Source: an uncultured Rhodospirillaceae bacterium (GTDB lineage Bacteria > Pseudomonadota > Alphaproteobacteria > UBA11136). Taken from it: DNA of 64,000 bases. Shown here one piece after another: positions 44,383-46,129 of this stretch. A program made the translations under genes and the position numbers. The notes under the pieces are model-generated. The model made no database searches. It saw only the letters and a program-made list of their open reading frames with translations, and had not been told where the DNA came from. The stretch covers positions 62,949 to 126,948 of the forward strand of contig CAZAKR010000002.1 of the NCBI GenBank assembly GCA_964486105.1. Direction: 5' to 3'. The stretch's first letter is position 1, and the number at the start of each line of letters is the position of its first letter.

Positions 44383-45759
44383 TTATGACAACACGGCCAA
44401 CATATCCTCGATACGGGTGAATTTCTCCCGCGGCTTGCCTTTGGCCTCGCCATTGGCGACCTCGGCGGCGTCGATTTTCTGCCAGTCTTCGTAAGACACC
44501 ACCCGTACCCCTTTACCTTCGAGGAGAGATCGAAGCCCCGCCCCTCCGGTTTTTTCAGAGGCTTCGAGGGTGGACAGGTCGGCGAGAAGCGATCCCACGG
44601 TTTCAACGCTGTCGGGCCGGTTGGTGCCGATAATGCCGCTCGGACCGCGCTTGATCCAACCGGCGCAGTAAACCCCCGGCAAAACGCTGCCGTCATTGGT
44701 TATCCGCCCTTCCTGATTGGGGAAAACGCCCTTCTTGTCGTCAAAGGGAACGTCGGCGATGGGAATACCGCGATAGCCGATGCTGCGGAACAACAAGCCG
44801 CAGGGAAGATCAATGGTTTCGCCGGTTTCCTCGGCCCATTGGTTAAAAGCTTCGCCCTCCAGCCGGTTCTTCATCAGGGTCACGGCTTCGAGCCGGGAGC
44901 CGCCTTTGAGTTCCGTCGGGCCTTCGAGAAAACGGAAATGGAGATTGCGGCTCTTCGATCCAGCCGGGCGCTGGGAGAACGCCGTCAGGGTCTCGATATT
45001 TTTAATCGCGCTACGATTGGTCTTGTCCTCAAGCTCGGCCTTGCTGGCCGCGTTGAGGTCAAGAATGGCCGGGTCGATCACCGGGTCACAATCGGCAAGT
45101 TCGCCGAATTCCTTCAGTTCCGCATGGGTAAACTTGGCCTGGGCCGGGCCGCGCCGCCCGATCATGTGAATATCGCGGATCTTGCTTTGGGAAAGAGCCT
45201 CCAGCGCATGTTCGGCGATATCGGTGTTTTTAAGCTCATCCACCGTCTTGGCGAGTATCCGGCAGACATCCGCCGCCACGTTACCCTGACCGATAATGAC
45301 CGCCACTTCCTGGGAAAGATCGAACTCATGGTCGCGGTAATCTGGATGGCCGTTATACCAATAGACGAATTCGGTGGCCGTATGGCTGCCCGGTAAATCC
45401 TCGCCGGGAATGCCGAGCCGCCGGTCGCTTTCCGCCCCGCAGGTGAATATGACTGCATGATGGGTGCCCTGTATCTCGGCCAGAGCAACATCGCGACCAA
45501 AGGTTACATTGCCGAGGAAAGACACATTGGGGTTATCGGCGATCTTGTCATAGGCCTTTGTCGCCGCCTTGATCTTGGCGTGATCGGGCGCCACACCGGC
45601 GCGAACCAGCCCGAAGGGCGTCGCCAACCGGTCGAGGATATCAATCTCGACCGTAACATCGGCCTTCAAAAGCGCATCGGCGGCATAAAACCCGCTGGGA
45701 CCGCTTCCCACGATCAGAACTTTTAAAGGGTTCCCCTCCGACCCGAGACCATCCGACAT
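44383..45759 (-). CDS. NADPH:ferredoxin oxidoreductase, adrenodoxin-reductase/FprA type
   Basis: N-terminal GSGPSGFYAA FAD motif and second GQGNVAAD NADP motif. 458 aa. Confidence 0.8.
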   Translation of the reverse strand: MSDGLGSEGNPLKVLIVGSGPSGFYAADALLKADVTVEIDILDRLATPFGLVRAGVAPDHAKIKAATKAYDKIADNPNVSFLGNVTFGRDVALAEIQGTHHAVIFTCGAESDRRLGIPGEDLPGSHTATEFVYWYNGHPDYRDHEFDLSQEVAVIIGQGNVAADVCRILAKTVDELKNTDIAEHALEALSQSKIRDIHMIGRRGPAQAKFTHAELKEFGELADCDPVIDPAILDLNAASKAELEDKTNRSAIKNIETLTAFSQRPAGSKSRNLHFRFLEGPTELKGGSRLEAVTLMKNRLEGEAFNQWAEETGETIDLPCGLLFRSIGYRGIPIADVPFDDKKGVFPNQEGRITNDGSVLPGVYCAGWIKRGPSGIIGTNRPDSVETVGSLLADLSTLEASEKTGGAGLRSLLEGKGVRVVSYEDWQKIDAAEVANGEAKGKPREKFTRIEDMLAVLS

Positions 45760-45823
45760 GCTTAACCTCTCCCGTTTGTTACTTTTGTTTCTTCAAACCC
45801 CGGCGGATGTGCGATGACCGTTC

Positions 45824-46129
45824 CTAGAATCCCAGTTCGGCCTTGCGGGCCTCTGCTGTCGGCAGGGGATCGGTCTGCTCATTGATGACCGGCAGGCCTG
45901 CGGATTTCTCGGCATTGATCTCGACCCATTTTTCCATGCCGTCTGGAATGTCGGCCTCTTCGAAAATCGCCTGCACCGGACATTCGGGGACACAGGCCCC
46001 ACAGTCGATGCAGACCTCAGGGTCGATATAAAGCATCTCGTCATCGCCGTGAAAGCAATCGACGGGACAAACCGTCACGCAATCGGTGAACCGGCAACGT
46101 TGGCAGTTTTCTGTAACGACAGTCGTCAT
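45824..46129 (-). CDS. fdxA: 7Fe ferredoxin ([3Fe-4S][4Fe-4S], FdxA type)
   Basis: CxxCxxC...CP and CIDCGACVPECP cluster motifs. 101 aa. Confidence 0.9.
   Translation of the reverse strand: MTTVVTENCQRCRFTDCVTVCPVDCFHGDDEMLYIDPEVCIDCGACVPECPVQAIFEEADIPDGMEKWVEINAEKSAGLPVINEQTDPLPTAEARKAELGF

What the first reader, a model, noticed from the sequence alone, without database searches (positions are those of the whole stretch)
44383..46129. 7Fe ferredoxin and FprA-type NADPH:ferredoxin reductase immediately downstream of the Cys-type fwd module: candidate electron path coupling formyl-MFR oxidation to NADP(H)
A 7Fe FdxA-type ferredoxin (45824..46129) and an FprA/adrenodoxin-reductase-type ferredoxin-NADP+ reductase (44383..45759) follow fwdC on the same strand and sit between the two formyl-MFR gene sets. 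The formyl-MFR/CO2 couple is very low potential and needs a ferredoxin-level carrier, so the pairing is consistent with Fd as the physiological acceptor or donor and FprA as the link to NADP(H).
Basis: inference. Interest (0 to 1): 0.68.

Follow-up and report, generated by a model that had tools for sequence, protein, structure and literature searches.

The report
Ferredoxin–NADP reductase pair wired to bacterial Fwd
A small iron-sulfur ferredoxin gene and an NADPH:ferredoxin reductase gene are real, and across several bacterial phyla they stay next to an archaeal-type formylmethanofuran dehydrogenase, which suggests a so far undescribed route that burns one-carbon units straight to CO2 while making NADPH.

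Summary
Window 45824-46129(-) encodes a 101-aa 7Fe ferredoxin (E 2e-30 to Azotobacter FdI). Window 44383-45759(-) encodes a 458-aa FprA/adrenodoxin-reductase-type enzyme (E 1.5e-110 to M. tuberculosis FprA). Both follow fwdC on the same strand.

The pair is the tail of a seven-gene module, fwdD-fwdB-fwdA-ftr-fwdC-fdxA-fprA, inserted inside a second, Cys-less fhc operon.

Eighty genome loci were retrieved with the Cys-type FwdB. Of these, 55 had enough flank to judge, and 46 of the 55 carry FprA adjacent on the same strand. FprA lies downstream of fwdC in Alpha- and Gammaproteobacteria and upstream of fwdD in Gemmatimonadota and Betaproteobacteria. All FwdB orthologs keep the catalytic Cys-His, and no FwdF/FwdG carrier is encoded nearby.

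The link is not exclusive. Related fdxA-fprA cassettes also sit beside a 2-oxoacid:ferredoxin oxidoreductase, MoaA, a molybdopterin enzyme and a siroheme reductase.

Best reading, from synteny plus thermodynamics: formyl-MFR (-530 mV) → FdxA → FprA → NADP+ (-320 mV). Direction and physical coupling are inferred, not shown. I found no published description. It is a new variant of a known kind, of moderate to high interest.

The parts
51157..51516 (-). fwdD (119 aa), the molybdopterin-dinucleotide-binding 'cap' subunit and first gene of the inserted module
   Evidence: Pfam PF01568 Molydop_binding on the identical gene in L001. NCBIfam FMD_DH_FwdD E 2.6e-20, below that archaeal model's cut-off. 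Found upstream of FwdB in nearly all related loci.
49754..51112 (-). fwdB2 (452 aa), a redox-competent Mo/W-pterin subunit with Cys119-His120 and an N-terminal C13/C16/C20/C41 Fe-S motif
   Evidence: TIGR03129 509 bits (cut-off 328). E 3e-116 to the FwdB of the F420-reducing Fwd (8RJA_B) and 5e-112 to 5T5I_B, with 'AVCHGP' aligned to 'SVCHGP'. Cys-His is kept in 89 of 89 orthologs.
47956..49614 (-). fwdA2 (552 aa), amidohydrolase subunit
   Evidence: TIGR03121 694 bits (cut-off 393).
47059..47952 (-). ftr2 (297 aa), formyl-MFR:H4MPT formyltransferase belonging to the module
   Evidence: PF01913 and PF02741; TIGR03119 430 bits.
46209..47018 (-). fwdC2 (269 aa; true start is the ATG at 47018, not the longer ORF from 47225)
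   Evidence: TIGR03122 270 bits. Same gene call in L001-L003. Sequence read.
46130..46208 (-). 79-bp fwdC-fdxA spacer with a GGGGAG ribosome-binding site; no significant terminator or promoter
   Evidence: fold z-score +0.66. The median spacer in 50 related loci is also 79 bp.
45824..46129 (-). fdxA (101 aa), 7Fe ([3Fe-4S]+[4Fe-4S]) FdI-type ferredoxin and proposed electron acceptor of Fwd
   Evidence: The 7Fe Cys pattern is kept in all 56 fwd-linked orthologs with an intact FwdB on the same locus, and in 57 of 58 when two partial-module loci are added.
45760..45823 (-). 64-bp fdxA-fprA spacer with a GGGAGAGG ribosome-binding site
   Evidence: no structure; z-score +1.83.
44383..45759 (-). fprA (458 aa), FAD-containing adrenodoxin-reductase-type NADPH:ferredoxin oxidoreductase and proposed link to NADP(H)
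   Evidence: G18, G20, G157, G159, R202 and R203 are invariant in 26 homologs. Adjacent to the fwd module in 46 of 55 assessable loci.
51666..54646 (-). fhcB1 (53333-54646; Cys-His replaced by Ala-Leu) and fhcA1 (51666-53333): upstream half of the split hydrolase-type Fhc set
42563..44274 (-). fhcD1 (43378-44274) and fhcC1 (42563-43381): downstream half of the split Fhc set, directly after fprA

Best explanation
fdxA and fprA are the last two genes of a conserved, mobile seven-gene module, fwdD-fwdB-fwdA-ftr-fwdC-fdxA-fprA. The module encodes a bacterial, redox-active (Cys-ligated Mo/W-pterin) formylmethanofuran dehydrogenase, its own formyltransferase, and its electron outlet.

Proposed mechanism:
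1. Ftr2 moves the formyl group from formyl-H4MPT to the furan cofactor.
2. FwdA hydrolyses it, and FwdB/D oxidises the resulting formate to CO2.
3. The two electrons leave through the FwdB [4Fe-4S] cluster, one at a time, to the 7Fe ferredoxin. FdxA takes the place of the archaeal FwdG/FwdF carriers.
4. FprA collects the electrons on FAD and reduces NADP+.

Net reaction: formyl-H4MPT + H2O + NADP+ -> CO2 + H4MPT + NADPH. This is strongly downhill (about -530 mV to -320 mV). It is a formate-free, NADPH-yielding branch running parallel to the hydrolytic Fhc branch encoded around it.

Shown: the identity of the genes, the cofactor motifs, and the conserved linkage. Inferred: physical electron transfer from Fwd to FdxA, and the direction of flow.
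For: Gene identities.

Linkage:
- Eighty species genomes were retrieved with FwdB alone. Of 55 loci with a complete module and at least 2 kb on both sides, 46 have FprA adjacent and co-oriented.
- Of those 46, 35 have fdxA-fprA after fwdC, 4 have fdxA-fprA before fwdD, and 7 have fprA alone before fwdD.
- Two different positions, and insertion of the block at different points of fhc operons, argue for selection on linkage and against simple inherited gene order.

Independent retrieval with FprA from metagenomes: about 10-11 of about 22-23 assessable contigs with FprA at 54% identity or more are fwd-linked (my own tally from the output). More distant FprAs (53% or less) stand alone without FdxA.

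Spacers are short (medians 79 and 72 bp). No significant terminator or promoter lies between fwdC, fdxA and fprA.

All 89 FwdB orthologs keep Cys-His, and all paralogous FhcB lack it. No FwdF/FwdG-like gene fits in the cluster: the gaps are at most 149 bp.

Pairwise distances of FprA and FdxA track those of FwdB (Mantel r 0.83 and 0.78, against 0.90 for FwdB-FwdA).

Thermodynamics and precedent: formyl-MFR/CO2 is -530 mV. An archaeal Fwd, the best PDB match of this FwdB, is known to dump electrons onto a -340 mV hydride carrier through an attached flavoprotein, acting as a 'thermodynamic pull' (PMC11493965). FprA-type reductases exchange electrons with ferredoxins, including 7Fe FdxA (PMC6208970).
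Against: - No expression or biochemical data exist.
- The linkage is not universal: 9 of 55 loci lack it, and those show no substitute carrier nearby. Some Gemmatimonadota keep fprA without fdxA.
- The linkage is not exclusive. Related cassettes sit beside 2-oxoacid:Fd oxidoreductase, MoaA, a molybdopterin oxidoreductase and a siroheme reductase. In most of those settings the expected flow is NADPH -> Fd.
- Adrenodoxin-reductase-type enzymes are classically NADPH oxidisers. Their flavin potentials, as I recall them (roughly -230 to -290 mV; not verified here), are not tuned for NADP+ reduction.
- In Azotobacter-type 7Fe ferredoxins only the [3Fe-4S] cluster (about -420 mV, recalled) is normally redox-active. 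The clusters of this protein have not been measured.
- The Mantel correlation is also expected for any genes sharing a species history.
- One contig (L100) has FprA next to a Cys-less B/A pair.
Confidence: 0.58

Rival explanations
1. Same linkage, opposite direction. NADPH -> FprA -> FdxA supplies electrons to Fwd. The purpose would be either to keep the oxygen-sensitive Mo/W-pterin and Fe-S centres reduced or reactivated in aerobic hosts, or to drive CO2 reduction to formyl-MFR.
For: AdR/FprA-type enzymes normally run NADPH -> Fd (PMC6208970). Related cassettes neighbour enzymes that consume reduced ferredoxin: MoaA radical SAM, a siroheme reductase, and a nitrate-reductase-like molybdoenzyme. 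The hosts look aerobic: cytochrome oxidase assembly CtaA is at 15530-16600, and COX genes lie next to the cassette in L006.
Against: Net CO2 reduction at -530 mV from NADPH at -320 mV is uphill by about 40 kJ/mol, and no bifurcating partner is encoded. A repair or activation role would not obviously need stoichiometric, operon-level co-inheritance across phyla. The module carries its own Ftr and is embedded in a formaldehyde-oxidation island with Fae, MtdB and Fhc, which fits the oxidative direction.
Confidence: 0.17
2. General-purpose Fd/FNR pair. fdxA-fprA is the cell's housekeeping NADPH:ferredoxin couple, serving sulfite/nitrite reduction, radical-SAM enzymes and similar clients. It merely hitch-hikes in the H4MPT island, and Fwd uses it no more than other clients do, or uses another acceptor.
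For: The cassette is found in many non-fwd contexts. The same window encodes a NirA-type, ferredoxin-dependent siroheme reductase beside cysNC. Nine of 55 fwd modules do without an adjacent pair.
Against: Among relatives, adjacency is to the Cys-type fwd module specifically. It is preserved through rearrangement (before fwdD or after fwdC) and through relocation of the whole block relative to fhc. In the FprA similarity clustering, the subgroup that holds the window's protein is dominated by fwd-linked members. The 'stand-alone' FprAs form separate, more distant groups. Because 80 of the clustered loci were retrieved with FwdB, that clustering is biased towards fwd-linked members.
Confidence: 0.15
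3. FdxA is the Fwd acceptor, but reduced ferredoxin is mainly spent on other ferredoxin-dependent reactions. FprA acts only as an overflow valve that equilibrates the Fd pool with NADP(H).
For: Some Gemmatimonadota keep only fprA next to fwd, and some loci keep neither, so the chain is not rigid. Ferredoxin clients exist in the same genome.
Against: FprA is retained next to fwd more consistently than FdxA: 46 loci against 39. That is the opposite of what is expected if FprA were the dispensable part.
Confidence: 0.1

Closest known systems
Mycobacterium tuberculosis FprA (1LQT) with 7Fe FdxA, the FprB Fd-FNR fusion, and bovine adrenodoxin reductase
   Same: Same fold and length. The FAD and NADP(H) motifs and the Arg-Arg 2'-phosphate site are conserved (E 1.5e-110 and 1.1e-108). 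The partner is again a small 7Fe/3Fe ferredoxin (PMC6208970).
   Different: There the pair feeds electrons from NADPH to P450s and is not operon-linked to its client. Here the pair is co-inherited with a low-potential CO2-forming dehydrogenase and probably runs Fd -> NADP+.
Azotobacter vinelandii ferredoxin I (7Fe FdI, e.g. 1AXQ, 7FD1)
   Same: Identical cysteine ligand spacing for [3Fe-4S]+[4Fe-4S] and the same C-terminal DUF3470 extension; E about 1e-29 to 2e-30.
   Different: FdI is a stand-alone gene that works with a plant-type Fpr. This protein scores just under the NCBIfam FdxA_Protbact equivalog cut-off (121 against 135 bits) and is encoded next to fwd and an AdR-type reductase.
F420-reducing formylmethanofuran dehydrogenase of Ca. 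Ethanoperedens thermophilum (PDB 8RJA; PMC11493965)
   Same: Best structural-database match of the window's FwdB (E 3e-116). Same logic: formyl-MFR oxidation at -530 mV is coupled through Fe-S relays and a flavoprotein to a hydride carrier at about -330 mV, making the step irreversible.
   Different: The archaeal enzyme uses bound FwdG plus an FrhB-like FwdI and reduces F420. The bacterial module has neither. It encodes a separate 7Fe ferredoxin and an AdR-type FAD enzyme that should reduce NADP+.
Archaeal Fwd/Fmd complexes with FwdF/FwdG polyferredoxins (5T5I, 7BKB)
   Same: The FwdA, B, C and D homologs are all present, with the catalytic Cys-His and the FwdB [4Fe-4S] motif.
   Different: There are no FwdE, F, G or H genes. 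A formyltransferase gene is embedded in the operon. The host is an aerobic-type alphaproteobacterium, and the expected direction is oxidative.
Formyltransferase/hydrolase complex Fhc of Methylorubrum extorquens (6S6Y; PMC6926001)
   Same: Same A/B/C/D(Ftr) subunit set and the same H4MPT formaldehyde-oxidation context. Set 1 in the window is of this Cys-less type.
   Different: Fhc has no pterin cofactor and no redox chemistry, and it releases formate. The fwd module keeps Cys-His plus FwdD and comes with an electron-transfer pair. M. extorquens FhcB matches FwdB2 only at E 3e-15.

Membership tests
FprA / adrenodoxin-reductase-type NADPH:ferredoxin reductase | Full-length similarity to solved members (two Rossmann-type domains, about 455-460 aa) | tested here: met
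   Residues 11-455 align to 1LQT residues 3-452 (E 1.5e-110). 1CJC gives E 1.1e-108.
FprA / adrenodoxin-reductase-type NADPH:ferredoxin reductase | N-terminal FAD-binding GxGxxG | tested here: met
   G18-S-G-P-S-G23. G18, G20 and P21 are invariant in 26 homologs.
FprA / adrenodoxin-reductase-type NADPH:ferredoxin reductase | NADP(H) site: second GxGxxA motif and the Arg-Arg pair that binds the 2'-phosphate | tested here: met
   'GQGNVAADV' aligns to 'GNGNVALDV', and 'GRRGP' is identical to FprA. R202 and R203 are invariant. The assignment of these residues to the 2'-phosphate is from my knowledge of the FprA structure.
FprA / adrenodoxin-reductase-type NADPH:ferredoxin reductase | Curated HMM above cut-off | tested here: inconclusive
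   No dedicated NCBIfam or Pfam model scored above cut-off. There were only weak N-terminal hits to GltD-like and Pyr_redox_2 models.
FprA / adrenodoxin-reductase-type NADPH:ferredoxin reductase | NADPH-dependent ferredoxin reduction, or its reverse, measured in vitro | not testable with these tools
   Needs purified protein.
7Fe ([3Fe-4S]+[4Fe-4S]) FdI-type ferredoxin | Ligand pattern Cx7Cx3CP ... CxxCxxCx3CP | tested here: met
   C9, C17, C21-P22, C40, C43, C46 and C50-P51. The pattern is kept in 56 of 56 fwd-linked orthologs.
7Fe ([3Fe-4S]+[4Fe-4S]) FdI-type ferredoxin | C-terminal extension (DUF3470) after the ferredoxin core | tested here: met
   PF11953, 25.3 bits against a cut-off of 23.2.
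NCBIfam NF045490 FdxA (Proteobacteria) equivalog | Score of at least 135 bits | tested here: not met
   121.4 bits. I therefore call it an FdI/FdxA-type 7Fe ferredoxin and not a strict FdxA equivalog.
7Fe ([3Fe-4S]+[4Fe-4S]) FdI-type ferredoxin | Actual cluster content and potentials | not testable with these tools
   Needs EPR or voltammetry.
Redox-active formylmethanofuran dehydrogenase (Fwd/Fmd), the proposed partner | FwdB with a Cys/Sec metal ligand and adjacent His, plus the N-terminal [4Fe-4S] motif | tested here: met
   C119-H120 aligned to 'VCHGP' of 8RJA_B; the 9SFI_Q row prints 'VXHGP' at that position. C13, C16, C20 and C41 are present.
Redox-active formylmethanofuran dehydrogenase (Fwd/Fmd), the proposed partner | FwdA, FwdC and FwdD subunits | tested here: met
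   TIGR03121 at 694 bits and TIGR03122 at 270 bits, both above cut-off. FwdD has PF01568 and NF042908 at E 2.6e-20, which is below that model's cut-off.
Redox-active formylmethanofuran dehydrogenase (Fwd/Fmd), the proposed partner | Dedicated Fe-S electron-transfer subunits FwdG/FwdF | tested here: not met
   No such ORF is in the cluster, and the gaps are at most 149 bp. FdxA matches FwdG only through the generic Fer4 motif (E 2e-5). This is why I describe the system as a variant.
F420-reducing Fwd (Ethanoperedens type) | FrhB-like F420-reducing subunit FwdI | tested here: not met
   No such gene is among the called genes and Pfam assignments of the locus. It works like this system but is not a member.
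Fhc formyltransferase/hydrolase (set 1 flanking the module) | B subunit lacking the pterin-ligating Cys | tested here: met
   Ala-Leu at the Cys-His position.

The most novel reading that the evidence does not exclude
A widespread but uncharacterised bacterial enzyme system, found in at least Alpha-, Beta- and Gammaproteobacteria and Gemmatimonadota and including upland-soil and marine MAG lineages. It would be an NADP+-reducing formylmethanofuran dehydrogenase made of an archaeal-type FwdABCD-Ftr core plus a 7Fe ferredoxin and an adrenodoxin-reductase-type flavoprotein. It would oxidise H4MPT-bound C1 units directly to CO2 without free formate and yield NADPH, operating in parallel with the hydrolytic Fhc complex.
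Probability: 0.5. Interest if true: 0.75.

Novelty: new variant of a known kind. Interest (0 to 1): 0.62.

Why it matters
Bacterial H4MPT-linked formaldehyde oxidation is textbook-described as ending in the non-redox Fhc complex and free formate. The only bacterial relative covered in a 2024 review of formylmethanofuran dehydrogenases is Fhc (PMC11656701). A phylogenomic survey noted bacterial FwdB homologs without assigning them a role or partners (PMC10100899).

A conserved module that pairs a Cys-type Fwd with its own ferredoxin and NADP reductase gives a concrete, testable electron path. It implies a second terminal branch of C1 oxidation: direct CO2 release, NADPH yield, and an irreversible 'pull'. 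The carriers include uncultured soil, freshwater and marine lineages, among them relatives of atmospheric-methane oxidisers.

It would also be the first natural example of an adrenodoxin-reductase-type enzyme dedicated to a formyl-MFR/CO2 couple. It offers a simple three-component system for engineering NADPH-linked C1 oxidation.

Tried and rejected
1. Promoter and terminator scan of 42000-55300. There were 5 promoter-like sites against 6.6 expected. No minus-strand terminator lies in the fwdC-fdxA or fdxA-fprA gaps. Two weak hairpin-plus-T sites follow fprA (44381-44341), but they are not conserved in the 93% relative. This gives no evidence for or against separate transcription.

2. RNA folding of the three spacers gave z-scores of +0.66, +1.83 and -0.68. 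No structured element was found.

3. I looked for a ferredoxin domain fused to FprA in Gemmatimonadota loci that lack fdxA. None was found. The apparent N-terminal extensions are ORF-calling artefacts.

4. I looked for an alternative redox partner next to fwd modules that lack the pair (L014, L044, L053, L068, L081). Only H4MPT-pathway and unrelated genes were there.

5. I tested whether the 2-oxoacid:Fd oxidoreductase seen next to the cassette in L006-L008 recurs in other loci. It does not.

6. Seven literature searches found no description of an Fd/FprA partner for bacterial Fwd; one search covered only for FprA and 7Fe ferredoxin background. The library is limited to open-access papers, so this is absence of evidence only.

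7. The window's own species is not among the GTDB representatives retrieved: the best FwdB identity was 78%. Taxonomy therefore rests on GroEL.

8. I rejected the idea that FprA is a GltD/NfnB-like subunit. Those matches cover only the N-terminal Rossmann domain at E 1e-12 or worse, against 1e-110 for FprA.
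Full report
**1. What is at the coordinates**

The minus strand of the window carries an uninterrupted, co-oriented run of genes. Reading in the direction of transcription:

| Gene | Coordinates | Product |
|---|---|---|
| pterin-4a-dehydratase-like | 54667-55083 | |
| fhcB1 | 53333-54646 | |
| fhcA1 | 51666-53333 | |
| fwdD | 51157-51516 | 119 aa |
| fwdB2 | 49754-51112 | |
| fwdA2 | 47956-49614 | |
| ftr2 | 47059-47952 | |
| fwdC2 | 46209-47018 | |
| fdxA | 45824-46129 | |
| fprA | 44383-45759 | |
| fhcD1 | 43378-44274 | |
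| fhcC1 | 42563-43381 | |

FprA (458 aa):
- It aligns over its whole length with M. tuberculosis FprA (1LQT, E 1.5e-110) and with bovine adrenodoxin reductase (E 1.1e-108).
- It shows the FAD motif GSGPSG, the second dinucleotide motif GQGNVAADV and the GRRGP Arg-Arg stretch.
- These residues are invariant in 26 homologs.

FdxA (101 aa):
- It matches Azotobacter 7Fe ferredoxin I at about 1e-30.
- It has the 7Fe cysteine spacing and the DUF3470 tail.
- It lies just below the NCBIfam FdxA_Protbact cut-off, at 121 against 135 bits.

Both genes are preceded by good ribosome-binding sites.

**2. Two corrections to the description**

It starts with a FwdD cap subunit (PF01568; FwdD model E 2.6e-20).

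Second, the pair does not lie between two intact gene sets. The Cys-less set 1 is split, with fhcB1-fhcA1 before fwdD and fhcD1-fhcC1 after fprA. The seven genes fwdD to fprA therefore form a block nested inside an fhc operon.

FwdB2 keeps the pterin-ligating Cys119-His120 and the N-terminal four-Cys Fe-S motif. Its best match is the FwdB of the F420-reducing Fwd of Ca. Ethanoperedens (8RJA_B, E 3e-116). FhcB1 has Ala-Leu at the catalytic position.

**3. Is the adjacency meaningful?**

The same arrangement is present in identical metagenome contigs and in a 93%-identical relative. That is too close to be informative, so I ran two independent retrievals.

(a) *Retrieval with FwdB2 alone.* An alignment of FwdB2 orthologs returned 80 species-representative genomes at 71-78% identity. 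They include Alpha-, Beta- and Gammaproteobacteria (among them USCg_Taylor, Methylococcales, Thiotrichales, Ca. Oxydemutatoraceae and Ca. Methylophosphatis), Gemmatimonadota and Chloroflexota.

I ran tblastn with the eleven window proteins. Of 55 loci with a complete module and at least 2 kb on each side, 46 have an FprA ortholog adjacent and co-oriented:

| Arrangement | Loci | Lineages |
|---|---|---|
| fwdC-fdxA-fprA | 35 | Alpha- and Gammaproteobacteria |
| fdxA-fprA-fwdD | 4 | Gemmatimonadales |
| fprA-fwdD without a detectable fdxA | 7 (one looks frameshifted) | Gemmatimonadota |
| no pair | 9 | mixed |

- The fdxA-fprA-fwdD order also occurs in Betaproteobacteria (L035, L058, L079), but those loci fell outside the flank criterion.
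- No Fd domain is fused to FprA in the seven loci without fdxA.
- The nine loci without the pair show no substitute carrier nearby.
- The block sits at different places relative to fhc genes. It lies before fhcB in many Gammaproteobacteria, after fhcD in Gemmatimonadales, and between fhcA and fhcD in the window.
- All 89 FwdB2-type proteins keep Cys-His. All 36 FhcB-type paralogs lack it.
- All 56 fwd-linked FdxA orthologs keep the 7Fe pattern. Spacers are short, with medians of 79 and 72 bp.
- Pairwise distances of FprA and FdxA track those of FwdB (Mantel r 0.83 and 0.78, against 0.90 for FwdB-FwdA). This fits co-inheritance, although any genes that share a species history would also correlate.

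(b) *Retrieval with FprA alone from metagenomes.* The tallies below are my own reading of the output.
- Contigs with FprA at 54% identity or more usually have fdxA immediately upstream.
- About 10-11 of about 22-23 assessable contigs carry the fwd module.
- The others neighbour a TctA transporter, MoaA, a molybdopterin oxidoreductase, a siroheme reductase, or a monooxygenase and esterase.
- FprAs at 53% identity or less are solitary and cluster apart.
- Two of the closest database homologs of FprA sit directly upstream of a 2-oxoacid:ferredoxin oxidoreductase. That association did not recur elsewhere.

Conclusion: fdxA-fprA is a portable NADP(H):ferredoxin cassette that associates with ferredoxin-dependent enzymes. 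In this sampling, the Cys-type bacterial Fwd is its most frequent partner. The linkage survives rearrangement across phyla, which is strong evidence of functional coupling.

**4. Local signals**

No significant promoter-like or terminator-like site separates fwdC, fdxA and fprA. The spacers are unstructured. Weak hairpin-plus-T sites follow fprA but are not conserved in the 93% relative. Co-transcription is therefore plausible but not shown.

**5. Mechanism**

Established values, cited in PMC11493965: formyl-MFR/CO2+MFR is -530 mV and F420 is -340 mV. NADP+/NADPH is -320 mV (textbook).

The module encodes no FwdF or FwdG. FdxA is the only Fe-S carrier present, and FprA is the only nucleotide-linked enzyme.

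The best-supported chain is:

formyl-H4MPT -> (Ftr2) formyl-furan cofactor -> (FwdA/B/D) CO2 + 2 e- -> FwdB [4Fe-4S] -> FdxA -> FprA-FAD -> NADP+

From memory, the [3Fe-4S] cluster of such ferredoxins is near -420 mV in Azotobacter FdI, and it is the likely carrier cluster.

The overall drop of about 200 mV makes the step irreversible. This is the same 'thermodynamic pull' logic shown for the F420-reducing archaeal Fwd (PMC11493965).

The surrounding genes fit an oxidative C1 role: Fae at 61317-61829, MtdB at 56311-57225, beta-RFAP synthase and ATP-grasp H4MPT-biosynthesis genes.

The host is an uncultured Rhodospirillales-like alphaproteobacterium. Its GroEL is 95% identical to a Rhodospirillaceae MAG and about 80% identical to Nisaea and Terasakiella.

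Shown: gene identities, motifs and conserved linkage. Inferred: Fwd-to-FdxA electron transfer, direction of flow, and NADP specificity in vivo.

**6. Rivals**

- *Reverse flow* (NADPH -> Fd -> Fwd) for reductive activation or CO2 reduction. This fits the usual direction of AdR-type enzymes and the reductive clients seen next to related cassettes. Net CO2 reduction, however, is about 40 kJ/mol uphill with no bifurcating partner encoded.
- *A housekeeping Fd/FNR pair* hitch-hiking in the island. This is supported by the cassette's promiscuity and by a NirA-type ferredoxin-dependent reductase in the same window. It is hard to reconcile with the rearrangement-proof linkage.
- *FprA as an overflow valve only.* This is disfavoured because FprA is retained more consistently than FdxA, in 46 loci against 39.

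**7. Comparison with what is known**

The proteins are ordinary members of the FprA/AdR and 7Fe-ferredoxin families. The system-level arrangement is what is new.

- A 2024 review of formylmethanofuran dehydrogenases lists only Fhc as the bacterial relative (PMC11656701).
- A 2023 survey noted 149 bacterial FwdB homologs acquired from Archaea, without function or partners (PMC10100899).
- My searches found no paper linking bacterial Fwd to Fd/FprA. The library holds open-access papers only.

I therefore class it as a new variant of a known kind: an Fwd with a different, NADP-directed electron-transfer module.

**8. Verdict**

| Claim | Confidence |
|---|---|
| The pair is functionally tied to Fwd | about 0.8 |
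| The specific formyl-MFR -> Fd -> NADP+ chain | about 0.58 |

Interest is 0.62.

Noticed in passing
window 42563-54646 (-); compare L014, L019, L030, L091: The Cys-less fhc operon is split by the seven-gene fwd/fdxA/fprA block (fhcB1A1 | block | fhcD1C1). In other lineages the same block sits before fhcB or after fhcD, so it behaves as a discrete cassette that is always co-oriented with fhc.
   Followed up: partly
window 53333-54646 (-): FhcB1 has lost the catalytic Cys-His (Ala-Leu instead) but still has the N-terminal CxxCxxxC...C Fe-S motif. M. extorquens FhcB is shorter (361 aa), and the match to it begins only at residue 65 of FhcB1. FhcB1 may be an intermediate form between Fwd and Fhc.
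   Followed up: partly
window 13101-15245 (-), beside 9557-12343: A 714-aa NirA-family, ferredoxin-type siroheme nitrite/sulfite reductase lies next to cysNC (and probably cysD). It is another likely consumer of reduced ferredoxin in the same genome, which bears on the housekeeping rival.
   Followed up: partly
L006 and L007 5632-10874; L008 5639-11084: In Gammaproteobacteria MAGs, a 65%-identical fdxA-fprA cassette lies directly upstream of a three-gene 2-oxoacid:ferredoxin oxidoreductase. In L006 and L007 it also lies next to cytochrome oxidase genes. This is a second example of the cassette attached to a low-potential CO2-releasing enzyme.
   Followed up: partly
L111 2126-5012; L112 53-4025; L104 7959-11479: Related cassettes neighbour MoaA (radical SAM), a 685-aa molybdopterin oxidoreductase, and a siroheme NIR_SIR protein respectively.
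   Followed up: no
window 46158-46178 (fwdC-fdxA spacer): A 5-bp hairpin followed by a U-run keeps its pairing through one G:C to A:U double change in the 93% relative L003. The folding z-score is not significant and only two sequences were compared.
   Followed up: partly
L100 8001-12045: FprA (60% identity) lies directly upstream of a Cys-less B/A pair (Pro-Ala at the Cys-His position), with no Cys-type FwdB within 8 kb upstream. This is an exception to the Fwd-specific linkage, and the contig ends soon after.
   Followed up: no
L092 1957-2256: A second FdxA-like gene (53% identity) lies upstream of fwdD, in addition to the fdxA-fprA pair downstream of fwdC.
   Followed up: no
L043-L045 and L062 (Methylococcales MAGs): FwdB orthologs at 71-73% identity that keep Cys-His were found with no FwdD hit at my threshold. 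The one assessable locus has no fdxA or fprA. The 'Fhc' of some methanotrophs may therefore actually be redox-competent.
   Followed up: no
window 22883-35545 and 36431-40435: A hopanoid biosynthesis and export cluster (amine-oxidase HpnE-like, squalene-hopene cyclase, HpnH-type radical SAM, MMPL transporter) is followed by a 2-aminoethylphosphonate-type cluster (PEP mutase fused to a nucleotidyltransferase, a TPP decarboxylase, an aminotransferase).
   Followed up: no
window 2308-3942 (-): A class I lysyl-tRNA synthetase (PF01921), which is unusual in bacteria as far as I recall.
   Followed up: no
window 41684-42202 (-): A 172-aa ORF directly downstream of fhcC1 has no Pfam or NCBIfam match. 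It is conserved in position in L001-L003.
   Followed up: no
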